Positions 11,288 through 35,669 of a stretch of DNA of 44,632 nt are shown here, piece after piece (within the stretch, counting starts at the first letter, position 1; the number at the start of each line of letters is the position of its first letter). The position numbers were made by a program, and so were the translations under genes. The stretch covers positions 1-44,632 of IMG/VR virus record IMGVR_UViG_3300045988_026856. One strand, given 5' to 3'. The notes under the pieces were generated by a model. That model was given only the letters and a program-made list of their open reading frames with translations. It was not told the DNA's origin and made no database searches. The DNA is from a virus (Duplodnaviria > Heunggongvirae > Uroviricota > Caudoviricetes).

Positions 11288-12364
11288 ATGCTATTAACTT
11301 TAGCGCCACAGGGTTTATCTATGAGCTTACTTACATCTCTAATCAGCCATCAGATATGGCTGCAACGCGCCGCATCCGGTGAAGTGAAAGACCTCGCACC
11401 GTTCATCAAGGAAATGCGTGACGAAATCAAACGGCAGGTGCTGTTATTTGGTGACGACGGGCGAAGCACCGCGCGACTGAATAAATTGTTACGCGACCTC
11501 GAAGACGCACTGGCGGGTATTACGGGTGACTGGCAAACAAAGCTGACAGAAGACCTTAAGGAACTGGCGGCGTATGAGGCGGAGTGGAACGTAAAGACAC
11601 TGACCGCCAACGTAAACGCGGAATTTGTCACACCTACTGCCGAACAGGTGTGGTCCGCTGCCGAGTTTCAACCCTTATCATTAAGCGACAAGCCTGTTGA
11701 TTTCACTAAGCTGATGTCGGGATGGGGTGAAACCGAAGTAGCACGTCTCGTAACCGGCGTTAAGATGGGCTTTGTACAAGGCCAGACAACACGGCAGATT
11801 GTTAAGAATGTCGTAGGCGCTGGTGGGCTGACGGACATCTCTGAGCGTAACTCGGCTACCGTAATTCGCACCGCGCTGTCTCACGTATCCAACGAAGCGC
11901 GTAACGAGACGTACCGCCAGAACGACGACATCATCGAGAAGTACGAGTGGGTGTCGACGCTGGACAGCCGTACCAGCACGATTTGCAGAGCCAGAGACGG
12001 AATGACGTGGGAAATTGGTAAAGGGCCAATGCCCCCCGCCCATCCGAATTGCCGGTCGTGCACGGCTCCGGTAATCAGTTCAGAGTTCGACTTCCTGGAT
12101 AAAGGCGCAAAACGCGCGGCTAAGGGCGCAGATGGCGGTACTCAGGTAAGCGCGGACACCACCTATTACGAGTTCCTGAAACAACAACCGGCGTGGTTTC
12201 AGGATGAAGCGCTTGGTCCTGTTCGCGGTAAGATTTTCCGTAACAGCGGTATATCGCCGGAAGAGTTTCGCGTAATATCTGTAGATGGTTTCGGGAATCC
12301 GCTTACGCTTAAGCAGATGGCGGAACTCGATAAACGTGTTGCTGATTATCTGAAAGGGGAATAA
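11288..12364 (+). CDS. minor head protein, Mu F-like (head morphogenesis)
   Basis: EWVSTLDSRTSTICRARDGM motif typical of the Phage_Mu_F domain; alternative start at 11321. Confidence 0.75.
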   Translation: MLLTLAPQGLSMSLLTSLISHQIWLQRAASGEVKDLAPFIKEMRDEIKRQVLLFGDDGRSTARLNKLLRDLEDALAGITGDWQTKLTEDLKELAAYEAEWNVKTLTANVNAEFVTPTAEQVWSAAEFQPLSLSDKPVDFTKLMSGWGETEVARLVTGVKMGFVQGQTTRQIVKNVVGAGGLTDISERNSATVIRTALSHVSNEARNETYRQNDDIIEKYEWVSTLDSRTSTICRARDGMTWEIGKGPMPPAHPNCRSCTAPVISSEFDFLDKGAKRAAKGADGGTQVSADTTYYEFLKQQPAWFQDEALGPVRGKIFRNSGISPEEFRVISVDGFGNPLTLKQMAELDKRVADYLKGE

Positions 12365-12825
12365 TGATGGGCTTTTTCAAAGTAACTGATGTACCGTCAC
12401 GCCGCGTAGTCCAGTACGCCCGCGTGTCTGGCTCCGGTGAGAACGTGGTATTTATTGAAGATGAAAGTGTACTCGGTATACCGGTAGATGATATGCCGTT
12501 TGCTGATAAAACCGGTATTGCACTACCTGCGGCGGGCATGCTTTATGAAATTCCGTATCTGGCGGACGCGGGAGACGTGTATTTCTCTGTGCAACCGAAA
12601 GACACCGAACTGGCGGATGGCAGTGCAACTATCACCGTCGAAGTTAAGGCCGGTAAAGCACCATACGCGCTGACCTGGTACAAAGACGGGAAGGAAGTAG
12701 TAAACGCACCCGAAGAGGCTTTGTCTCTGATGGTTAATGCGGTAGGTGAATACTTCGTTAAAGTCACCGATGCCGGTGGAGTGGAGGCTGTGAGTAAAGC
12801 GGCGAAGGTCACTAAGCCAGAATGA
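12364..12825 (+). CDS. Ig-like domain protein (153 aa)
   Basis: C-terminal SATITVEVKAGKAPYALTWYKDGKEV...GEYFVKVTDAGG Ig-like pattern. Confidence 0.55.
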   Translation: MMGFFKVTDVPSRRVVQYARVSGSGENVVFIEDESVLGIPVDDMPFADKTGIALPAAGMLYEIPYLADAGDVYFSVQPKDTELADGSATITVEVKAGKAPYALTWYKDGKEVVNAPEEALSLMVNAVGEYFVKVTDAGGVEAVSKAAKVTKPE

Positions 12826-14450: not shown

Positions 14451-15500
14451 ATGGCAATTACCACTATCGGTGACATCGTAACTGGCAACGTACCCGTCCT
14501 TCTGTCTTACATGACCGAGGACCCGGTAGAGAAAACTGCGTTCTTCCAGTCTGGTATTCTGACCCCGACTCCATACGCTGCCGAGATTGCCCGCGGCCCG
14601 TCCAACGTCGCTAATATTCCTTTCTGGAAAGCGATTGATACTTCTATCGAGCCTAACTACTCGAACGACGTATACCAGGACATCGCCACCCCGCGTAACG
14701 TGCAGACCGGCGAGATGATGGCGCGCGTTGCATACCTGAACGAAGGCTTTGGGCAGGCTGACCTGACTGTTGAACTGACCAGCCAGAACCCGCTGCAATC
14801 CGTAGCGTCGCGTCTGGACAACTTCTGGCAGCGCCAGGCGCAACGCCGTCTTATTGCTACCGCGCTCGGTTTGTACAACGACAACGTAGCCGCTACCGAC
14901 GCGTACCACGAGCAGAACGACATGGTAATCGACGTGTCCTCTACTCTGGGCTTCGATGCAGGTGCGTTCATCGACGCTACCCAGACTATGGGCGATGCGC
15001 TGATGGGCAACGGCGGTGAAGTGCTGGGTGCTATCGCGATGCACAGCTTCGTTTATGCGCAGGCCCGTAAGCAGCAGCTTATTGACTTCATCAAAGACGC
15101 CGACAACGACACACTGTTCGCCACCTACCAGGGTTACCGCGTGATTGTTGACGACAGCATGACCGTAGTCGGCACCGGCTCTAGCCGTAAGTTCATCTCC
15201 ATTATCTTCGGTAACGGCGCTATCGGTTACGGTGAAGGTTCTCCGTCCAACCCGTTGGAATACGAGCGCGAAGCGTCTCGCGGCAACGGCGGTGGGGTAG
15301 AAACCCTGTGGACCCGTAAGACCTGGTTGCTGCACCCACTGGGCTACAGCTTTACCAGCGCAGTAATCACCGGTAACGGCACCGAAACCGTCGCACGTTC
15401 TGCTTCCTGGCAGGACCTGGCGAACGCTTCCAACTGGAACCGTGTGGTTGACCGTAAGCATGTACCGATTGCCTTCCTGGTAACTGGTGTCGGTGCTTAA
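14451..15500 (+). CDS. major capsid protein
   Basis: 349 aa, position after scaffold, followed by a strong terminator. Confidence 0.65.
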   Translation: MAITTIGDIVTGNVPVLLSYMTEDPVEKTAFFQSGILTPTPYAAEIARGPSNVANIPFWKAIDTSIEPNYSNDVYQDIATPRNVQTGEMMARVAYLNEGFGQADLTVELTSQNPLQSVASRLDNFWQRQAQRRLIATALGLYNDNVAATDAYHEQNDMVIDVSSTLGFDAGAFIDATQTMGDALMGNGGEVLGAIAMHSFVYAQARKQQLIDFIKDADNDTLFATYQGYRVIVDDSMTVVGTGSSRKFISIIFGNGAIGYGEGSPSNPLEYEREASRGNGGGVETLWTRKTWLLHPLGYSFTSAVITGNGTETVARSASWQDLANASNWNRVVDRKHVPIAFLVTGVGA

Positions 15501-15516
15501 GGTTAAGATATAATCG

Positions 15517-15541
15517 AGAGGGACTTCGGTCCCTCTTTTCA
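15517..15541 (+). terminator. intrinsic terminator (AGAGGGAC-TTCG-GTCCCTCT + TTTC)
   Basis: 8-bp stem directly after the capsid stop. Confidence 0.55.
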
Positions 15542-15559: not shown

Positions 15560-15859
15560 ATGGCCAAGACCGGAAAAGGCTTGCCGCGCAGCCTTCAGAA
15601 TGTCGATTTCGGCGACTTTGATATCCCTGTCGCACCTGCTACTACCAGCGTAGTTGGTGGGGTTAAAAAGTCAGCTACTGTGGATGCACCTGCGGCCGTT
15701 ACCGCAGCCGCAAGGGAGCAGTCCGCTGCTGAACCGACTAAAGCCGAGTTCGACGCGCTTGTAGCGGAGTACAACAAACTCCTAACCGATGTTACCGCGC
15801 TGCGCACTACCGTAGCGAACCTGTTAACCGCGCTTAAAAACGCAGGAACTGTAAGCTAA
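15560..15859 (+). CDS. hypothetical structural protein (99 aa)
   Basis: ORF track; AAGAGG RBS. Confidence 0.5.
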   Translation: MAKTGKGLPRSLQNVDFGDFDIPVAPATTSVVGGVKKSATVDAPAAVTAAAREQSAAEPTKAEFDALVAEYNKLLTDVTALRTTVANLLTALKNAGTVS

Positions 15860-15871
15860 AGGAGATTAAAA

Positions 15872-16219
15872 ATGGTTGATGTAATTAAACGTCGTATTAC
15901 CGGTGTTTCTGATGAAGACTCTGACGGTCAGGTTGAAATCGACATGGCAAACATCTCTCCAGCGTCTTTTTCTATCGCACCGAGCGCCACCACAGCAGTT
16001 ACAGCCGGGTAGACTATGACACTGACCGTAGTTGTTACTGGTGGTCTGGAGCCGTATTCCTACCAGTGGTACAAGAACAACAACGCTATCGCCGGGGCAA
16101 ACGCGGCTTCCTATGCGAAGGCGTCCACCACTACCGCCGATTCAGGTACGTATAAAGTGGTTGTTCACGATGTGTATGGTAATATTATCTCCAGCAGCAC
16201 TGTCGCAACTGTGTCTTAA
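15872..16219 (+). CDS. Ig-like domain protein interrupted by an in-frame TAG at 16010..16012
   Basis: ATG 15872 with AGGAG RBS; TAG-ACT-ATG in frame; the Ig-like pattern (SIAPSATTAVTAG / TMTLTVVVTGGLEPYSYQWYK...SGTYKVVVHD) spans the stop. Confidence 0.5.
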
Positions 16220-16255
16220 TACAACGGCCCTTCGGGGCCGTAATAAGGAAAGGTC

Positions 16256-22572: not shown

Positions 22573-24904
22573 TGTAGCTAGTTTAGTTGTAAAAGTATCA
22601 GAGCAAGGCGCGAAAGCTACCTCAGACCGTCTTGATAACCTTTCCAAGTCCGCAAAGGTAGCCGGGGCCGCGGTAGCGGGCCTCGCTTCCATCGTCGCTG
22701 CTACCGCGTACAAGGCCGCACAGGAACTGGTAGACTCCCAACGGCAACTGGATAAGATGTCCGCCAGCCTGAAAACACTAACCGGAAGCACGCAGGGGGC
22801 AAGACAGGCATTAAGCATCCTGCAAGACTTCGCGCGCGACACTCCGTATGGTCTTGAACAGGCAGTAGAGGGATTCCGTAAACTTGTGGCGCTTGGTCTT
22901 ACACCATCAGAAGAAGCGTTGCGCTCCTATGGCAACACTGCCGCTGCTATGGGTAAAGACCTAAATCAGATGATTGAGGCCGTTGCGGACGCCAGTACGT
23001 TTGAATTTGAGCGCCTTAAAGAATTCGGCATCAAGGCTAAGCAGAACAAAGACGATGTTGAATTTACATTCCAGGGCACTACTACGGTGGTTAAGAAGAG
23101 CGCTGCCGATATCGAGCAATACCTGCTCAACATTGGTAACGTAAACTTCGCTGGGGCTATGGCGGACCAGGCTAACACACTTAACGGGGCCATAGCCAGT
23201 GCCAGCGACTCATGGTCGCAGTTAAAAATGACACTGGCTACCAGTCTTTATGTTGGTGCGCTCGCCGAACCTATCCGATACATCGATGATTTAATCCAGG
23301 AACTTAACGCACAGGTTGCATCCGGTGAACTTGCCGCAGAGATGCGTATGTGGGGTGACATCGCGTCGGAAGTAGGAAGCGCGATAGAGATGTCGTTCGA
23401 CGCGGCATTTGGTTTTGTAGGTGACGCGATAAATGGACTGAATGAACTTTGGGATTTTAGCAGTAAAAGTATCACCGACAGCGGCGAACAAACGGCGACA
23501 ACCATCGCGGAATCAGCAGCCGATGCGCTCGATTTCATCGCGGAAGAATTTACCGCGATGGAGCGCTTCTTTGAAGATATGGTTAAAGGGGCGCAGGACG
23601 CTGGCCGGTTGGTGAAAGCAGCCTTCACACCAGGGGAATCTGTAGACGTAGCAAAAAACATTAACTTCCAGCTAGGGATGGCACTGGATACTCAGCGCGA
23701 TGTTGCGGACCTGACCCGTAAAAGTTTCCGCGAACAGGTGGAGGCTCAGCAAAATATCGTCGCGCTTAAACGCGCGGCATATGACATCGACAAAGAAGCC
23801 GCTAAGGAAGAAGGGCTTAGTAAATTTAAGGTAACTGGTACTGGTGGCGGGTCCGAAGATGATAATGCTGGTGCAAAAGCCGCCAAGAAAGCTGCGGACG
23901 CGTTCGAGCGCCAGAAGAAAGCGGCGGAAGACTTCTACTATCAGTCAATCCATCTTAATGATGACGTATTTCAGAAAATAGAAGCTAACCAGGAAGAGCA
24001 ACTATCTAAGTTGCAGGATTTCTATAGCAATAAGCTTCTTAGCGACCAGCAATACGAAAACGCCAAGACGCAGATTATGCTCTCTGCCGAACAGGCCCGC
24101 CAGGAAGAACTGGATAAGAAAAGGAAGGAGGCCCAGGAGAAGCAACAGAAAGGTGATGATTTCATGGCTCAGATTATGGGCCAGAACGCCACCGAGCTTG
24201 AGCTTCTGGATATTCAGGAACAGCAGAAACTGGCGGTAGCTGATAAGTACCGTGAGCAGGGTCTGATTAGCGAGAAGCAGTATCAGGCTGCGCTTAACGC
24301 CATCAACGAGCAGTACGCCACAAAGCGTGCCGGCGCAACGGCAACTGCCTTTGGTAACATGGCTTCAAACATCGGGTCTGCGTTGGGCGAGGCTTCTGGT
24401 GCGTACAAGGCATTCGCTATCGTACAGGCCACTATAGCCACGTACACCGCCGCCATTGAAGCGTATAAGTCAACGGCGGCTATCCCGGTTGTTGGACCAT
24501 TCCTTGCACCAGTAGCTGCTGCCGCTGCCGTTGGGGCGGGTATGGCTCAGGTTTCCGCTATCAGGTCAGCACGTGAACAGGGCGGTCAGTTATCAGCGGG
24601 ACAGGCTTCCACCATCGCCGAGCGCGGAAAACCAGAAGTTATCATGCCTGCGGGTGCATCGCGTGTGCGCACCGCGCAGCAGATGAAAGAAATTATGGGG
24701 CAAAACGGCGGCAGTACCGGACCAGCCAATATCAGCATTATAAATAACACCAGTGCACAAATTGGCAACACCAGCGTTGAACAGGACGAAGAAGGCCGCC
24801 TACGTATCATCATCGAAGAACAGGTAGCCGCCTCTTTGCAGAATAGCAACAGCAAAATATCGAAAGCGAGGAAGGCTACAAGAAACGCACCGGGCTTTAA
24901 GTAG
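22565..24904 (+). CDS. tail tape measure protein
   Basis: 779 aa, coiled-coil-rich, position after chaperones. Confidence 0.8.
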   Translation: MADVASLVVKVSEQGAKATSDRLDNLSKSAKVAGAAVAGLASIVAATAYKAAQELVDSQRQLDKMSASLKTLTGSTQGARQALSILQDFARDTPYGLEQAVEGFRKLVALGLTPSEEALRSYGNTAAAMGKDLNQMIEAVADASTFEFERLKEFGIKAKQNKDDVEFTFQGTTTVVKKSAADIEQYLLNIGNVNFAGAMADQANTLNGAIASASDSWSQLKMTLATSLYVGALAEPIRYIDDLIQELNAQVASGELAAEMRMWGDIASEVGSAIEMSFDAAFGFVGDAINGLNELWDFSSKSITDSGEQTATTIAESAADALDFIAEEFTAMERFFEDMVKGAQDAGRLVKAAFTPGESVDVAKNINFQLGMALDTQRDVADLTRKSFREQVEAQQNIVALKRAAYDIDKEAAKEEGLSKFKVTGTGGGSEDDNAGAKAAKKAADAFERQKKAAEDFYYQSIHLNDDVFQKIEANQEEQLSKLQDFYSNKLLSDQQYENAKTQIMLSAEQARQEELDKKRKEAQEKQQKGDDFMAQIMGQNATELELLDIQEQQKLAVADKYREQGLISEKQYQAALNAINEQYATKRAGATATAFGNMASNIGSALGEASGAYKAFAIVQATIATYTAAIEAYKSTAAIPVVGPFLAPVAAAAAVGAGMAQVSAIRSAREQGGQLSAGQASTIAERGKPEVIMPAGASRVRTAQQMKEIMGQNGGSTGPANISIINNTSAQIGNTSVEQDEEGRLRIIIEEQVAASLQNSNSKISKARKATRNAPGFK

Positions 24905-24940
24905 TAACAAAAAAAATAAGGCCCGAAAGGGCCTTATTTA
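24905..24940. terminator. bidirectional terminator (A8-TAAGGCCC-GAAA-GGGCCTTA-TTT)
   Basis: Stem-loop flanked by A-run and T-run between convergent genes. Confidence 0.65.
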
Positions 24941-25893
24941 TGCGGAACTTTAGGCTTCACTCCGTCCCTACAAAGGGCCAAAATCTCTGGAATTATCTTA
25001 GGGTCTGAGGTTAGCATCCACTCCGTGGATCCGTCGAAGCTGCCATAGCCCCACTCATTCGACGCTATTTTGTAAGTGTTATGGAAATACACTTCTAGCA
25101 TTCGTATTTTTGCGCCGTTATCGTCGCGATGAATGCCAAGCACTTCGAAACCAAAGGGGGTAGCGTTACGCAGGTGACGTATCCGCTGTTTAGGCCTGTT
25201 TGATAACCCTATCTTCACGAATCGGCCGCATTCACTAAGTAACGCATAGAGGAACCCAGTTTTATTAGGGTCGTACCCGCTAGAGGCACATCCAGGACAT
25301 CCTTGATTCTGATGAATGATATCTGCTATTCGCTGGCTAAACTCACCATGGATATCGCAAAGCCGCACCGCTTTGCTATACTGATTCTTATACCCTCCTT
25401 CGAAGCGCAAGAACTTCCACTTATCACTCACGGCGTAAATCTGCGAGATGCGTTCCTCCTCTGAGTATGAAGGTCTTCCCGCGCAACTAGGACACCCATG
25501 TTCCTTACTAATTGCGTTAGCTATCAAAGTGTCGAACTCCCCGTGTTCGGGACAGAGCCTACGTACCTTAGAATAGGCGTTTCGATAGCCGTTAGGAAAT
25601 CCTACAAAACTGTATTGCGGGGCTACCTTAGCTAGTTCCTCTACTACATTGCTCTCAGGTTTTCGCTGTTTGCTTGATGAAGATTCTTTTCCACACCTAG
25701 GGCACCCAATACCTTTTTTAATACTAGCGGCCGTTGCCGAGAAAGCCCCATGTTCGCGGCAAAATAGGGTTATCTTACTAAACGCACCTGTATACCCCGC
25801 ACCATCGTCCAACAACTCGTATTTACCGCCGTGGTTGGCTAAATCAGCTAATATCCTCTCGCGGCGCTCAGGCCATAGTATTTTCCGGCACAT
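24934..25893 (-). CDS. three zinc-ribbon repeats fused to a C-terminal GIY-YIG-like (T5orf172-type) domain
   Basis: Three repeats of YSK..LC..HGEF...(7-9)...GCP.C; C-terminal GFLYAL...VKIGLSNRPKQRIRHL...GSTEWM; start refined to ATG at 25893 with GAGGT RBS. Confidence 0.7.
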   Translation of the reverse strand: MCRKILWPERRERILADLANHGGKYELLDDGAGYTGAFSKITLFCREHGAFSATAASIKKGIGCPRCGKESSSSKQRKPESNVVEELAKVAPQYSFVGFPNGYRNAYSKVRRLCPEHGEFDTLIANAISKEHGCPSCAGRPSYSEEERISQIYAVSDKWKFLRFEGGYKNQYSKAVRLCDIHGEFSQRIADIIHQNQGCPGCASSGYDPNKTGFLYALLSECGRFVKIGLSNRPKQRIRHLRNATPFGFEVLGIHRDDNGAKIRMLEVYFHNTYKIASNEWGYGSFDGSTEWMLTSDPKIIPEILALCRDGVKPKVPHK

Positions 25894-25923
25894 AATCAAC
25901 CTCAATAAAGAGTATTAACTAGT

Positions 25924-25952
25924 ATACTATTCAACCATGGGGCCCGGGTCAA
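25924..25952 (-). promoter_or_regulatory. sigma70-like promoter TTGACC-N17-TAGTAT for the 24934..25893 gene
   Basis: Hexamers on minus strand about 30 nt upstream of the start. Confidence 0.4.
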
Positions 25953-26038
25953 CATAAACGTCGTGATGTTACGCCCCCTCCATGGTAGCATTGGCTTAAA
26001 GTTATTGCGATGGTATCCAATCTACCGGGGTTTAAATA

Positions 26039-27436
26039 ATGAGCGACTTATACTTTCCACGTAGCCTTAAGCCGGTGGTATCAAAAGGCTACTCAATGAC
26101 CAGACGTAACAACGTCTGGAGTGTAGATTTAGCCGGTGGCGGGGTGCGTCAGGGCCGTGACACATATTACGACGTGTTCCCTGTTAGCGTAACCCTCATT
26201 ACATCCGCAATGGGGCGACAGGCGTTTCTGTCGTTCCTCGAAAAAGTAGACGGCGGTGCGTCAAGTTTCTGGATGGCGCACGACTTCGGCATGGGTATTG
26301 AGGACTACCAGGTAACCATCACGTCAACCATCGCGGAATCCACCGAAGACGGCATTAACTGGACGATTACCTTCACGGCAACCGCCGAGAAATCGCCGTT
26401 CCAGGACCTTGAGAACCAGTGCCTGATTAACAATCTGCCAGATTTGTACGGTTGTTACGGGGATTGTCTGGGTAGTTTCCTGAAAATATACGCGAACTAC
26501 GAAACTACGTTCCCGCGCATCTGGAGCAATGAAGGGCCTGCCGGGTATCCACCGATTAACCTTCTGGCGTCGACTCTTGATAGCCGCATTGTTTACGATG
26601 GGCCACAGGTTTACTACATCAACCGAAATGGCAATCTTGTGCAGTCCGCCGCCAATGAATGGCCTCTTACGTTCATTGATGGTGTTGCGGTCGGGCGTGT
26701 GCCGCCAGAATCCACATCCAGCAATATCCTGATTAAATCGTCGAAATTATCTGACGCATCGTGGGTTAAAACTAGAGCAACAGTGTCGGACGCAGTTGAC
26801 GGATTTCTAAACGGCGGTACGTTCTCACTAGTCCCGACCCAGACAAACGACAGCCATCTCGTATATCAATCGGTGTCTTCCGCTTTTGCGGAGGGTGATG
26901 TATACACTCTCAGTTACGTTGCTAAGGCATATGGTTATAATTATGCGAGACTTCGCGCCGCTGATGATGCTGGGTTTATCGCGGATTGTGTTGCTAACTT
27001 ATCGACAGGGGTTATTTACGCGGGCGCCCCCGGCAGCGATATAGCAGAGCTTGGCGATGGTTGGTATCGATTTACAGAAACGGTAGCTATACGCCAGGGC
27101 GGCGCATCTTCTCTGCTTTTAGCGTCATGGGTGTACAACAACTCCGCCGTTGGTTCATTTGTCGGTGACGGGGTTAGTGGGATATTAGTGTGCGCGATGC
27201 AAATAGAAAAATCACCTTTTGCCACGTCGCCAATAGTAACCGAATCGTCACCGGTAACCCGAACGACGGCATCAGCAAAAGTAACCATGAATGGCGCGAC
27301 AAGCATTGACATTACCTACTCCGACGGCTCCGTGATAAACGTTCCGTCTGTAGATGATTACGCGGCTATCCCTCAAGCGGATTCGGCGTGGGGTAGTAAA
27401 TACATCACTCGTATTGATTTTAATGTGGACGGTTAA
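26039..27436 (+). CDS. minor tail protein, gpM-like N-terminal domain with long C-terminal extension
   Basis: N-terminal about 110 aa resemble lambda gpM (YYDVFPVSVTL...FLSFLEKVDGGASSFWM). Confidence 0.5.
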   Translation: MSDLYFPRSLKPVVSKGYSMTRRNNVWSVDLAGGGVRQGRDTYYDVFPVSVTLITSAMGRQAFLSFLEKVDGGASSFWMAHDFGMGIEDYQVTITSTIAESTEDGINWTITFTATAEKSPFQDLENQCLINNLPDLYGCYGDCLGSFLKIYANYETTFPRIWSNEGPAGYPPINLLASTLDSRIVYDGPQVYYINRNGNLVQSAANEWPLTFIDGVAVGRVPPESTSSNILIKSSKLSDASWVKTRATVSDAVDGFLNGGTFSLVPTQTNDSHLVYQSVSSAFAEGDVYTLSYVAKAYGYNYARLRAADDAGFIADCVANLSTGVIYAGAPGSDIAELGDGWYRFTETVAIRQGGASSLLLASWVYNNSAVGSFVGDGVSGILVCAMQIEKSPFATSPIVTESSPVTRTTASAKVTMNGATSIDITYSDGSVINVPSVDDYAAIPQADSAWGSKYITRIDFNVDG

Positions 27437-33461: not shown

Positions 33462-34882
33462 TTCTTACCTCGTCTCTTCATGTAATTAAGCAATTCTTCC
33501 TGGACCGATTTCTTCTCGTCAGTACGCGCGGCAACAACCTCGTCCAGCGTGTCTTTAGCAACGATGTGGTAAAGGAATACCGGGCGCTCGTGTCCCGCCT
33601 GTTTCTGGCGTACCGGGCCTATACGCTCAACGACCTGCAAATAGTGCTCAAGGTTCCAGCCTTGTGAAATAAACGCCAGATGATGCCCACCGTCCTGTAA
33701 ATTGAGGCCGTGGCCCGCTGACGCCGGATGTACGCATAAGATTTCGATTTCACCGCGGTTCCACGCTTCCATCTGCTTATTGCCCTTAGCACCTTTTGCA
33801 AACGCCTGGGCTTGAGGGAATCGCTTAAGGATACGTTCCAGTTCGTGCTTGAACTGATAGGCGACCAGTAGCGGTGCGCCCTGTAACTCCTCGACAATGG
33901 ACTCAAGCGCATCCAGTTTCGTATCGTGCACTTTCTCCCAGTCTTTGGTTGCTTCTCCGTCCGGCCCCGACACATACACGGCACCAGATGCAATCTGCAA
34001 ACACTTCGACGTCTTCGCCGCTGCGTTAGCTGCTTCAACTTCTCCGCTCTCCAGTTCTGCAAATAGCTTCTCCTCCATATCTATGTACGCCTGACGCGCT
34101 TTCTTCGGCAGGTCGATTTCAACCGGTACGATAATCGGCGCTTCACAACCGAACCACTCAGCGGCGTCAATCGTGAGACTAATGTCCTTCATCTTCTGGT
34201 GAATCTCAGTATCCGCGCCCGGGCGGGCGTGATACTCTCGTGCCATAGCGGACTTACCCTTCTGTACCGAATTAAACCAGCGGTCGGTGAACGCGGTGTA
34301 TGAAGAACCCAGGCGCTCGCCAGCGTCGATAAACCAGTTCTGGCCCCACAGGTCTTTGAGGCCATTTGGTGATGGCGTACCGGTAAGGTTGATGAAACGC
34401 TTAACCTTACCGAATGCCACTTTACTAAGCGCCTTTGCCCGCTTGCTGCCACCTGAACGGCTACGGAAAGATTTCAGTTTCGTGCTTTCATCGGCAACAA
34501 TAACCGTAAAAGGCCAGTCGTCTTTGCCGTAGTAGTCAATCAGCCACTCGATAACTTCGTAGTTAGTGCACACCACGTTAGCATCTGACTCCAGCGCCGC
34601 GATGCGGCGCTTCTCTGAACCGGTCGCATCTACGACACGCAGACACGGGAAACCCCACTTAGTTTGTTCTGAGGGCCATGTGCCGGACGCAACACGTAAA
34701 GGGGCCAGAATTAACACTCTGTCGCCGTCGTTAAGCTGACCATTACGGAACAGCCTGTTCAACGCCCACAGTACGCTGCCAGTCTTCCCGGCGCCCATGC
34801 TTGCCCAAATATTACAGCGAGGGTGCTGCAACATGAACGAAGTCATGAGCTTTTGGTACTCGCGCCTTTGGAACCTACTCAT
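33458..34882 (-). CDS. SF2 (SNF2/DEAD-like) helicase
   Basis: Walker A GAGKTG and DEST box (VIVADESTKLK). Confidence 0.8.
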   Translation of the reverse strand: MSRFQRREYQKLMTSFMLQHPRCNIWASMGAGKTGSVLWALNRLFRNGQLNDGDRVLILAPLRVASGTWPSEQTKWGFPCLRVVDATGSEKRRIAALESDANVVCTNYEVIEWLIDYYGKDDWPFTVIVADESTKLKSFRSRSGGSKRAKALSKVAFGKVKRFINLTGTPSPNGLKDLWGQNWFIDAGERLGSSYTAFTDRWFNSVQKGKSAMAREYHARPGADTEIHQKMKDISLTIDAAEWFGCEAPIIVPVEIDLPKKARQAYIDMEEKLFAELESGEVEAANAAAKTSKCLQIASGAVYVSGPDGEATKDWEKVHDTKLDALESIVEELQGAPLLVAYQFKHELERILKRFPQAQAFAKGAKGNKQMEAWNRGEIEILCVHPASAGHGLNLQDGGHHLAFISQGWNLEHYLQVVERIGPVRQKQAGHERPVFLYHIVAKDTLDEVVAARTDEKKSVQEELLNYMKRRGKK

Positions 34883-35669
34883 TTACCGCCCCCATGAATG
34901 CCTTTATAAATTCAGCGGCTACTTGCGGGACGATGGCATTGCCGTAACCGCGCAATCGTCCCACTCTGGCGGGTACCCCATTAGCCAGCGGGAATGTGCT
35001 GGGTTCAACTGGCCTGAATTTCCCATCCCGGCATCCGAGCCAGTCAGCATCTGACCAGAACCCGTTAGGCGGATTGGCTGTGCCAGAGATGCCTCTGTTT
35101 GCAGATTGTGGCCCCCGTTCCTGCCCTGATGGCCTGCTCCCGCCGAGTTGTTCGCACACGGTGTTGGCCAGTTGCTGCGCTCCGAAGAACAATCGATTCC
35201 TTTTGTGCGGTGCGCCGACGCTACAAGCTGGGAGTACGGCAAACCCGACGGCGTAGTCTTCTCTTTCCAGGTGAGTTTGTAAATCGCACATCCACGATTT
35301 TGCAATTGCTGCCGCAACCTGCTCCCCAAAGATAACTGGAGGGCGGCACTCGCTGATGAGGTCGAGGAACACAGGTGCGAGGTGTCTCTGGTCGAACTGT
35401 CCGAGTTGCTTTCCTGCCGTGCTAAACGGTTGGCAAGGCGGGCTTCCCGTCCAGAGAGGCGCATCTTCCGGAACTCCAGCAAGTCTGAGCGCGAGAGGCC
35501 AGCCGCCGATACCAGCGAAAAAATGACACTGGGTGAACCCGTCAAGGTCTTCTGGTCTAACTTCGGTAATGCTTCTTTCATCTACAACTCCAAAAGGTAT
35601 GTGACCCTGTTTTATTAATTCACGCAGCCACGCGGCTGCGCCTTTATCCCATTCGTTGTAATAGTTCAT
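34875..35669 (-). CDS. DNA (cytosine-5)-methyltransferase, orphan
   Basis: Motif I FAGIGG, motif IV PCQPFS, HKRNR, C-terminal GNAIVPQV; no restriction partner nearby. Confidence 0.8.

What the first reader, a model, noticed from the sequence alone, without database searches (positions are those of the whole stretch)
15872..16219. In-frame amber codon inside an Ig-like domain coding region
An ORF with a good RBS (ATG 15872) runs 46 codons into TAG (16010..16012); the frame continues in-phase through ACT-ATG into the 16016..16219 ORF. The Ig-like sequence pattern (SIAPSATTAVTAG | TMTLTVVVTGGLEPYSYQWYK...SGTYKVVVHD) spans the stop, so the domain is only complete if the TAG is read through. Possible explanations: programmed stop-codon readthrough giving two isoforms, an amber mutation carried in a suppressor host, a recent pseudogenising mutation, or a sequencing error.
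Basis: seen in the sequence. Interest (0 to 1): 0.6.

Follow-up and report, generated by a model that had tools for sequence, protein, structure and literature searches.

The report
Amber-truncated phage capsid decoration gene
A real single-base change (CAG to TAG) cuts short the small, probably dispensable antibody-like decoration protein of an E. coli phage; it is an ordinary nonsense allele, except that the same codon has been hit independently in at least five related phage lineages.

Summary
ATG 15872 opens a frame that meets TAG at 16010-16012 and continues in phase to TAA 16217-16219. The Ig-like domain (about residues 31-115) spans the stop.

The window is a metagenome-assembled Kagunavirus genome (Guernseyvirinae). 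The gene is its 115-aa Hoc/pb10-like capsid decoration protein, two genes downstream of the major capsid gene. Every intact relative has one uninterrupted ORF of 113-118 codons, usually with CAG (Gln) at this site. The window differs by one C-to-T transition.

It is not a sequencing error: the same split gene occurs in six or more separately named assemblies of the same clone.

Programmed readthrough is not supported:
- The stop is absent from all 64 other full-length homologous loci examined and from a family of 496 protein clusters whose listed members are intact.
- No RNA structure follows the stop.
- TAG ends 8 of the 68 genes checked.
- The genome encodes no tRNA.

Best reading: a young natural amber allele of a non-essential gene. 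It yields mainly a 46-aa N-terminal peptide, with any full-length product depending on rare Gln insertion or a suppressor host.

Unexpectedly, TAG at this same codon arose independently in at least five lineages that are 88-92% identical to the window in the flanking DNA. The cause is unresolved.

The parts
15860..15864 (+). Shine-Dalgarno AGGAG, 7 nt upstream of the start codon
   Evidence: Read directly from the sequence. Conserved in relatives.
15872..16009 (+). Codons 1-46 of the decoration gene. Residues 1-13 (MVDVIKRRITGVS) are the most conserved part of the family and are the presumed capsid anchor. Residues ~31-46 form the first strand region of the Ig-like domain.
   Evidence: Conservation 92% for residues 1-13. 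Model: residues 1-28 disordered when free. The anchor role is inferred by analogy with pb10 (PMC5292684).
16010..16012 (+). In-frame amber codon TAG replacing CAG (Gln47) of relatives; a single C-to-T transition at 16010
   Evidence: Alignment with phages Ivi, KMB36, SHAK7693 and UTEC10. Codon survey of the full-length matches, which carry Gln, Ala, Glu, Asn, Lys or Gly and never a stop.
16013..16219 (+). Codons 48-115 (strands B to G of the Ig-like domain) plus the natural TAA stop at 16217-16219. The frame is still open and is identical in protein to intact relatives.
   Evidence: All 4 differences from phage Ivi downstream of the TAG are synonymous.
16016..16018 (+). Met49 ATG, 3 nt after the TAG. 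It is a possible re-initiation start for a 67-aa C-terminal fragment that lacks the first Ig strand region and the N-terminal region.
   Evidence: Gene callers split the gene here. It is not universal: TAG lineage L196 has ATT here. Re-initiation is inferred, not shown.
16226..16239 (+). GGCCC-TTCG-GGGCC stem-loop just after the gene, with no T-run
   Evidence: Sequence. Conserved in relatives. Stop-loss alleles translate through it.
14451..15500 (+). Major capsid protein gene, followed by a terminator-like hairpin at 15516-15537. This is context showing that the gene sits in the head module.
   Evidence: 98.9% identical to the Ivi major capsid protein. Hairpin.
15560..15859 (+). 99-aa 'head fiber / virion structural protein' gene immediately upstream
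   Evidence: Only a weak Pfam head-fibre hit.

Best explanation
The window is a Kagunavirus genome whose small capsid decoration gene carries a genuine, naturally occurring amber nonsense allele: CAG (Gln47) changed to TAG by one C-to-T transition at 16010. The protein has a conserved N-terminal segment plus one exposed Ig-like domain, the architecture of T5 pb10 and, more loosely, T4 Hoc.

In an ordinary host, release factor 1 terminates at this codon. The main product is then a 46-residue peptide that keeps the conserved N-terminus but lacks almost the whole Ig sandwich. A 67-residue C-terminal fragment may be made by re-initiation at the ATG three bases downstream, but it lacks both the N-terminal segment and the first Ig strand region.

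Full-length protein would appear only through rare near-cognate insertion of Gln at UAG, which would restore the ancestral residue, or efficiently in a host with a Gln-inserting amber suppressor (the supE type).

The phage tolerates this because such decoration proteins are accessory. The allele is young and not part of a conserved recoding programme.

Shown here: the mutation, its reality, its absence from relatives, its recency and its recurrence. Inferred: dispensability, the N-terminal anchor role, and any readthrough or re-initiation.
For: - Single-base difference: four close relatives at 91.5-97.2% identity have CAG and one ORF of 115-123 codons.
- Survey of homologous loci: the 64 full-length homologues found in GenBank and IMG/VR loci all carry a sense codon here. 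In those loci the only disruption is a frameshift in L068.
- Family: 496 clusters at 90% identity, and every member listed is 113-132 aa.
- Real, not an error: exact 46-aa and 67-aa products lie on 14-15 contigs. The named assemblies are at least 99.96% identical to the window over 1.4-15 kb.
- Recent origin: the nearest gene-level neighbour of each TAG allele is an intact allele. L195 differs from L009 by only the C-to-T change. The differences downstream of the stop that separate window from Ivi, and L197 from L013, are all synonymous.
- Only one gene is affected: of the Ivi genes shared with the window, only this one is interrupted, apart from a dubious 38-aa ORF.
- No recoding machinery: TAG ends 8 of 68 genes and there is no tRNA gene.
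- Accessory nature: other relatives carry frameshifts or an in-frame deletion in the same gene, e.g. the 75-aa fBC-Eco01 protein from a cultured phage.
- Homology: profile hits to pb10 (5lxk, 8zvi), the N4 and Moo19 decoration proteins, and Hoc.
- Literature: pb10 is dispensable and its N-terminal domain binds the capsid (PMC5292684). Gln is inserted at UAG in suppressor-free E. coli (PMC8954436, citing Nilsson and Ryden-Aulin 2003).
Against: - TAG at exactly this codon recurs in at least five independent lineages. No nonsense allele was seen at other codons among 44-76-aa N-terminal fragments. Pure neutral decay does not predict this concentration.
- The downstream frame is perfectly intact in all five lineages. 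Recency would explain that, but so would continued use.
- Dispensability has not been shown for any Kagunavirus.
- The named samples carrying the window clone may belong to only a few studies, so its spread in nature is uncertain.
Confidence: 0.72

Rival explanations
1. Convergent adaptive loss of the Ig domain. Losing the exposed Ig-like domain while keeping the conserved N-terminal peptide would be repeatedly favoured in some environments, for example to avoid antibody or glycan binding, or to save cost. CAG47 to TAG would be the cleanest one-step route because it sits at the start of the domain. This refines rather than replaces the nonsense-allele reading: it says the allele is selected, not merely tolerated.
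For: - At least five independent TAG origins at one codon, on backgrounds 25-74 nt apart within the gene, plus two further 47-aa products seen only as protein.
- Several frameshifts and a 5-nt deletion cluster at codons 45-48.
- All truncated alleles seen keep residues 1-33.
- The CAGAC context is not generally C/T-hypervariable between window and Ivi: 3 of 71 sites against a 5.2% baseline. That argues against a simple motif-driven mutational hotspot.
Against: - Ascertainment bias: the search used the 46-aa peptide, so it could only find products of about 44-76 aa with an intact N-terminus.
- TAG alleles are rare: none in the GenBank and IMG/VR loci first surveyed, and none found by the pattern scans of IMG/VR, JGI metagenomes and GTDB genomes.
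- They are tip variants with no sign of long persistence.
- No phenotype data exist.
- Codon 47 is simply one of the more variable positions, with 5 residue types.
Confidence: 0.2
2. Suppressor-host allele. The phage replicates in E. coli carrying a Gln-inserting amber suppressor, so TAG47 is read as the ancestral Gln and the allele is nearly silent.
For: A CAG-to-TAG change is exactly the kind that a supE-type suppressor restores to wild type. Amber suppressors are frequent in K-12 laboratory strains and can be efficient (PMC8954436). The downstream frame is intact.
Against: - The sequences come from metagenome and isolate-contaminant assemblies of unknown hosts.
- The phage encodes no suppressor tRNA.
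- Only one gene carries an in-frame TAG, and a permissive host might be expected to allow more.
- The host genotype cannot be read from this window.
Confidence: 0.07
3. Programmed stop-codon readthrough producing a short and a long isoform in a fixed ratio, in the manner of the Qbeta A1 protein.
For: The stop sits at a domain boundary and the frame continues for 68 codons. Gln is the residue that natural UAG readthrough inserts (PMC8954436). From my own knowledge, not checked in a paper here: Ig-like domains of phage structural proteins are sometimes appended by recoding, namely programmed frameshifts (Fraser et al. 2006, J Mol Biol).
Against: - The stop is not conserved. Orthologues have sense codons, and each TAG allele is a recent derivative of an intact gene.
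- The 111 nt spanning the stop (16000-16110) fold no better than shuffles, z = -0.27.
- TAG is used as a genuine terminator for 8 genes.
Confidence: 0.05
4. Sequencing or assembly error at 16010.
For: One source assembly has low coverage (NODE_170, cov 6.6).
Against: The identical TAG is present in at least six separately named assemblies. The same change also occurs in four other, diverged lineages from unrelated accessions.
Confidence: 0.02

Closest known systems
Phage T5 decoration protein pb10 (PDB 5lxk, 8zvi)
   Same: A small monomeric accessory head protein with an N-terminal region followed by one solvent-exposed C-terminal Ig-like domain. The family profile aligns residues 34-112 to the pb10 Ig domain (E 1.2e-14), with 38% identity in the fold match. 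pb10 is dispensable in the laboratory and its N-terminal domain binds the capsid (PMC5292684).
   Different: The N-terminal part here is only about 30 residues and is predicted to be disordered when free. It is not the 75-residue five-helix domain of pb10, and no sequence similarity exists outside the Ig domain. Binding site and copy number on the Kagunavirus capsid are unknown.
T4/RB49 Hoc (PDB 3shs), and the Ig-like decoration proteins of N4 (9e99) and Moo19 (9d7z)
   Same: Ig-like capsid decoration proteins. They gave weak profile hits and the best fold matches. Relatives of the window's gene are annotated 'Hoc-like head decoration protein'. Hoc is dispensable (Ishii and Yanagida 1977, as cited in PMC7602432).
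   Different: Hoc has three Ig domains and a C-terminal capsid-binding domain (PMC10385173). Here there is one Ig domain, and the conserved non-Ig part is N-terminal.
Classical amber mutants of phage structural genes
   Same: A single-base change of a Gln codon to UAG, with the remaining frame intact. In principle it is suppressible to wild type by a Gln-inserting suppressor.
   Different: It arose in nature, not by mutagenesis and selection on a suppressor host. It is in an accessory rather than an essential gene, and it recurs at one codon in several wild lineages.
Programmed readthrough, e.g. the Qbeta A1 protein (own knowledge)
   Same: An in-frame stop followed by an open extension that would add a domain.
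   Different: In Qbeta the stop is conserved and the extended protein is essential. Here the stop is sporadic and derived.

Membership tests
Ig-like phage capsid decoration proteins (pb10 / Hoc type) | Contains an immunoglobulin-like domain detectable by profile | tested here: met
   Pfam Ig_3 34.8 bits (cut-off 30), Ig_2 29.3 (27), I-set 23.9 (23.7) on the Gln-substituted product. PDB profile hits to pb10 at E 1.2e-14 and 2.5e-15. Fold matches to the N4, Moo19, pb10 and Hoc decoration proteins, from a model with pLDDT of only 65.
Ig-like phage capsid decoration proteins (pb10 / Hoc type) | Encoded in the head morphogenesis module | tested here: met
   Gene order: scaffold, major capsid, 99-aa head protein, this gene, 59-aa ORF, head-tail adaptor.
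Ig-like phage capsid decoration proteins (pb10 / Hoc type) | Physically bound to the outside of the mature capsid | not testable with these tools
   No Kagunavirus capsid structure or proteome was found. Papers only annotate the gene by similarity.
Ig-like phage capsid decoration proteins (pb10 / Hoc type) | Dispensable for plaque formation | tested here: inconclusive
   Natural nonsense, frameshift and deletion alleles occur on near-complete phage contigs, and one is in a cultured phage (fBC-Eco01, 75 aa). This is suggestive but is not an experiment.
Programmed stop-codon readthrough | The stop codon is conserved at the site among orthologues | tested here: not met
   Sense codons (Gln, Ala, Glu, Asn, Lys, Gly) in all 64 other full-length homologous loci. 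The family members listed are intact. TAG alleles are single-step derivatives of CAG.
Programmed stop-codon readthrough | A stimulatory downstream RNA structure or special context | tested here: not met
   16000-16110 folds at -32.8 kcal/mol against a shuffle mean of -31.7, z = -0.27. No notable repeats. The effect of the context UAG-A was not measured.
Programmed stop-codon readthrough | Both short and extended products are made | not testable with these tools
   Needs proteomics or a reporter assay.
Genome-wide TAG reassignment (recoded phages) | TAG is avoided as a terminator and is frequent in-frame in many genes | tested here: not met
   8 of 68 genes end in TAG. Only this gene has an in-frame TAG relative to phage Ivi.
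Genome-wide TAG reassignment (recoded phages) | The phage encodes a suppressor tRNA | tested here: not met
   ARAGORN finds no tRNA in the 44.6-kb window.
Amber nonsense allele | A single-base derivative of a sense codon in close relatives, with the rest of the frame collinear | tested here: met
   CAG to TAG at 16010. The window differs from Ivi by 8 nt across the gene.
Amber nonsense allele | Present in the real DNA population, not an assembly artefact | tested here: met
   Six named assemblies of the clone carry it. Read-level allele frequency was not testable.

The most novel reading that the evidence does not exclude
Codon 47 of the Kagunavirus decoration gene acts as a recurrent natural on/off or dimmer switch for display of the Ig-like domain. 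Independent lineages repeatedly acquire CAG-to-TAG at the boundary between the conserved N-terminal segment and the Ig domain. This sheds the exposed domain, or reduces it to a trace through Gln readthrough or to host-dependent levels in suppressor strains. It keeps the N-terminal peptide and remains reversible by one transition. That would be convergent, selected modulation of capsid surface display in gut phages.
Probability: 0.12. Interest if true: 0.7.

Novelty: new member of a known kind. Interest (0 to 1): 0.35.

Why it matters
For annotation, the two small ORFs (46 aa and 67 aa, deposited as 'hypothetical protein' and 'major tail protein') are one disrupted Hoc/pb10-like decoration gene. 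They are neither two genes nor a recoding site.

Biologically, near-isogenic natural pairs exist; L195 and L009 differ by the single C-to-T within this gene. They offer ready-made knock-outs for testing what Ig-like capsid domains do for gut coliphages: mucus adherence, immunogenicity, stability.

If the repeated hit on one codon turns out to be selected, it would be a compact example of convergent loss or modulation of a phage surface domain. If it reflects ascertainment, or tolerance at a variable position, the finding is routine.

Tried and rejected
- Exact and degenerate DNA pattern scans for TAG alleles in IMG/VR, JGI metagenomes and GTDB genomes returned nothing or only chance matches, as checked by tblastn. 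These collections hold no TAG allele.
- A 63-nt query centred on the TAG found no GenBank phage with the allele; the best hit was 98.4% identical, which corresponds to one mismatch in 63 bases.
- Genome-wide recoding or a phage suppressor tRNA was rejected.
- A downstream readthrough-stimulating RNA structure was rejected. Local repeats or quasi-palindromes that could template the change: none convincing.
- CRISPR-spacer or other matches in 5,426 complete E. coli genomes: none.
- A methylation or deamination hotspot tied to the shared CAGAC context: no excess of C/T differences at CAGAC between window and Ivi. This is a weak test. The specificity of the phage's own cytosine methyltransferase (Ivi ECPH5_57 homologue, window 34878-35669) was not determined.
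- A third protein search with a 77-aa query, meant to reveal nonsense alleles at Gln65 or Trp66, listed only full-length proteins and was uninformative.
P0187 and P0188 could not be examined at DNA level.
- A literature search for the run accessions found nothing, so the independence of the samples carrying the window clone is unknown.
- The AlphaFold model reached only pLDDT 65 and was used only for domain limits.

Full report
**1. What is there.**
The sequence is as described. AGGAG lies at 15860-15864 and the ATG at 15872. After 46 sense codons comes TAG at 16010-16012. The same frame continues ACT-ATG (16016) and runs to TAA at 16217-16219.

With Gln in place of the stop, the 115-aa product passes Pfam's gathering thresholds for Ig_3 (residues 33-98), Ig_2 and I-set. 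A profile of the family aligns residues 34-112 to the solved Ig-like domain of the T5 decoration protein pb10 (5lxk, E 1.2e-14; 8zvi, E 2.5e-15). It also matches, more weakly, the decoration proteins of N4 and Moo19, and Hoc.

An AlphaFold model of a 96%-identical intact relative has modest confidence (pLDDT 65). It shows residues 1-28 disordered and a beta sandwich from about residue 31, with strand B at 48-52. Its best solved-structure matches are phage decoration proteins and eukaryotic Ig domains.

The TAG therefore falls between the first strand region and strand B, inside the domain.

**2. Genomic setting.**
The window is a Kagunavirus (Guernseyvirinae) genome. Its closest GenBank relatives are about 90% identical overall and up to 97% identical locally.

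The gene order is: scaffold, major capsid (14451-15500), 99-aa head protein (15560-15859), this gene, a 59-aa ORF, and the head-tail adaptor.

Depositors call the orthologue 'Hoc-like head decoration protein', 'capsid decoration protein' and, less aptly, 'neck whiskers' or 'fibritin'.

The exact 46-aa and 67-aa products exist in NCBI nr as DAQ25611.1 and DAQ25550.1, 'MAG TPA ... Caudoviricetes sp.', the latter named 'major tail protein'. An ENA contig of exactly 44,632 bp (ERZ653375 NODE_170, coverage 6.6) differs from the window by 1 base in 14,988.

**3. Comparison with relatives.**
Phages Ivi, KMB36, SHAK7693 and UTEC10 each have one uninterrupted ORF with CAG where the window has TAG.

Over the GenBank and IMG/VR loci, every full-length match carries a sense codon at this position: Gln in 46 of the 64 (CAG 40, CAA 6), otherwise Ala, Glu, Asn, Lys or Gly. 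The only disruption in those loci is a frameshift in L068.

The large protein collection holds 496 clusters of this family at 90% identity. All members listed are 113-132 aa. The intact single gene is therefore the rule, and the window differs by a single C-to-T transition at 16010.

**4. Not an error.**
The identical split gene is found on 14-15 contigs. The named assemblies are SRR5165953, SRR6054435, SRR6054468, SRR6054472, ERZ653375 and ERZ1026913. All are at least 99.96% identical to the window over 1.4-15 kb.

I could not establish whether these samples are epidemiologically independent.

**5. Not recoding.**
- The window encodes no tRNA.
- TAG terminates 8 of 68 genes.
- Against phage Ivi's annotated genes, this is the only real gene with an in-frame stop. 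The other hit is a 38-aa low-complexity ORF of doubtful reality.
- The 111 nt spanning the stop (16000-16110) fold no better than shuffled sequence, z = -0.27. There are no notable repeats.
- Position 47 is among the more variable positions in the family, so any inserted residue would probably be tolerated. Variability is not evidence of a programme.

**6. An unexpected recurrence.**
Searching with the 46-aa peptide returned a set of short N-terminal products. Most are frameshifts. Several start right after ISPASF, which corresponds to the T5 run GCGTCTTTTTCT. Others lie at codons 45-48, and there is one in-frame deletion (the 75-aa fBC-Eco01 protein).

Several products end exactly before the Gln codon. 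At DNA level, five lineages carry TAG there with different neighbouring codons:

| Lineage | Source | Sequence around the stop |
|---|---|---|
| Window clone | ERZ653375 and others | GCC GGG TAG ACT ATG |
| L195 | SRR26665416 | GCC AGT TAG ACT ATG |
| L196 | SRR25571863 | GCA GGA TAG ACC ATT |
| L197 | E. coli assembly GCA_052600315.1, 43-kb contig | ACG GGG TAG ACG ATG |
| L208 | ERZ15185862 | GCA GGG TAG ACT ATG ACT CTT |

Two more 47-aa products (P0187, P0188) end at the same place, but I could see them only as protein.

The other four lineages are 88-92% identical to the window in the flanking DNA. Within the gene the five lineages differ from one another by 25-74 nt. For the three with a close relative in the set (window, L195, L197), the nearest neighbour is an intact CAG allele:
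- L195 differs from IMG/VR locus L009 by a single base, the C-to-T itself.
- L197 differs from L013 by 6 bases, and the four downstream of the stop are synonymous.
- The window differs from Ivi by 8 bases, and the four downstream of the stop are synonymous.

These are therefore at least five independent and young origins.

Among the 44-76-aa N-terminal fragments, no nonsense allele was seen at any other codon, although collinear fragments of 53-76 aa were detectable as contig-end partials (P0052, P0054, P0057). CAG65 and TGG66 offer three further one-transition routes to a stop. On that rough reckoning the concentration at codon 47 is more than chance.

The sampling was biased by the query, though, and a third search meant to close this gap was uninformative.

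**7. Why this codon?**
- A motif-driven mutational hotspot is not supported. The shared context is only C-AGAC, and CAGAC sites are not unusually C/T-variable between window and Ivi: 3 of 71 against a 5.2% baseline.
- Kagunaviruses encode a cytosine methyltransferase. Its specificity is unknown and I did not pursue it.
- No E. coli CRISPR spacer or other genomic match covers the site.

What remains is tolerance or selection. A stop at codon 47 removes the Ig sandwich cleanly while keeping the N-terminal 13 residues, which are the best-conserved part of the protein across Escherichia and Salmonella phages (92%). By analogy with pb10 (PMC5292684), these residues are the likely capsid anchor.

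Stops in mid-domain might be more harmful. Alternatively, loss of the exposed domain might sometimes be favoured. This is inference.

**8. Mechanism proposed.**
In a normal host, termination at UAG yields a 46-aa peptide.

The ATG three bases downstream, preceded by a weak GGGT Shine-Dalgarno-like element, could allow re-initiation of a 67-aa fragment. That fragment lacks both the N-terminal segment and the first Ig strand region. This ATG is also absent in lineage L196 (ATT).

Rare natural readthrough of UAG in E. coli inserts Gln (PMC8954436, citing Nilsson and Ryden-Aulin 2003), which would recreate the ancestral protein at trace level. A supE-type host would do so efficiently.

None of this was measured.

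**9. Verdict.**
Sequencing error is excluded, and programmed readthrough is not supported.

In kind, this is an ordinary nonsense allele of an accessory phage gene and an annotation trap.

The repeated independent hit on the same codon is the one feature worth following up. It is cheap to test with a census of public assemblies and with read mapping.

Noticed in passing
L207 (ERR14116869) 40-50; proteins P0186, P0189, P0049, P0062: Besides TAG, the same codon region carries other lesions in other lineages. These are GGGCAGAC to GGGGGAGAC (C to GG, but only 52 nt from a contig end), a 1-nt deletion inside CAG (product ending ...KSTGRR), and a 5-nt deletion of CGGGC or CCGGG (product ending ...TVTADYDS...). 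They may be real or may be assembly noise.
   Followed up: partly
L003 (SHAK7693) about 1018-1044; proteins P0119, P0136, P0116: Stop-loss alleles of the same gene. The natural TAA becomes CAA or CGA, which extends the protein by 8 or more residues (QYNGPSGP) through the GGCCC-TTCG-GGGCC hairpin. Both ends of this small gene therefore vary by stop/sense changes.
   Followed up: no
L002 (KMB36) 361-659, homologous to window 15560-15859: The upstream 99-aa 'head fiber / virion structural' gene is annotated as two ORFs (93 nt and 180 nt) in phage KMB36. A second small head accessory gene is therefore also found disrupted in a cultured relative.
   Followed up: no
window 24900-26040: About 1.1 kb between the tape-measure gene and the next tail gene has no counterpart in phage Ivi. 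It carries a minus-strand 319-aa ORF with weak DUF723, DUF4379 and CapR hits, possibly an inserted homing-endonuclease-like or other mobile gene.
   Followed up: no
window 34878-35669 (minus strand): A homologue (69.7% identity) of Ivi's 'putative cytosine-specific DNA methyltransferase'. It is much more diverged than the flanking helicase (98%), and its target site is unknown.
   Followed up: no
window 15516-15537: A strong terminator-like hairpin with a T-run lies right after the major capsid gene, upstream of the two small head accessory genes. It might lower their expression relative to the capsid protein.
   Followed up: no
L003 record OR594180.1; proteins P0195, P0001: Annotation oddities. 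SHAK7693 is filed under Autographiviridae/Kayfunavirus although it is collinear with Kagunavirus. One family member is labelled Cutibacterium avidum MAG. The window's 67-aa fragment is named 'major tail protein' in nr.
   Followed up: no
window 12364-12819: A second Ig-domain protein (about 152 aa; the Ivi ECPH5_24 homologue, 91% identical) is encoded just after the minor capsid (Mu F-like) gene. The virion may therefore display Ig-like domains from two genes.
   Followed up: no
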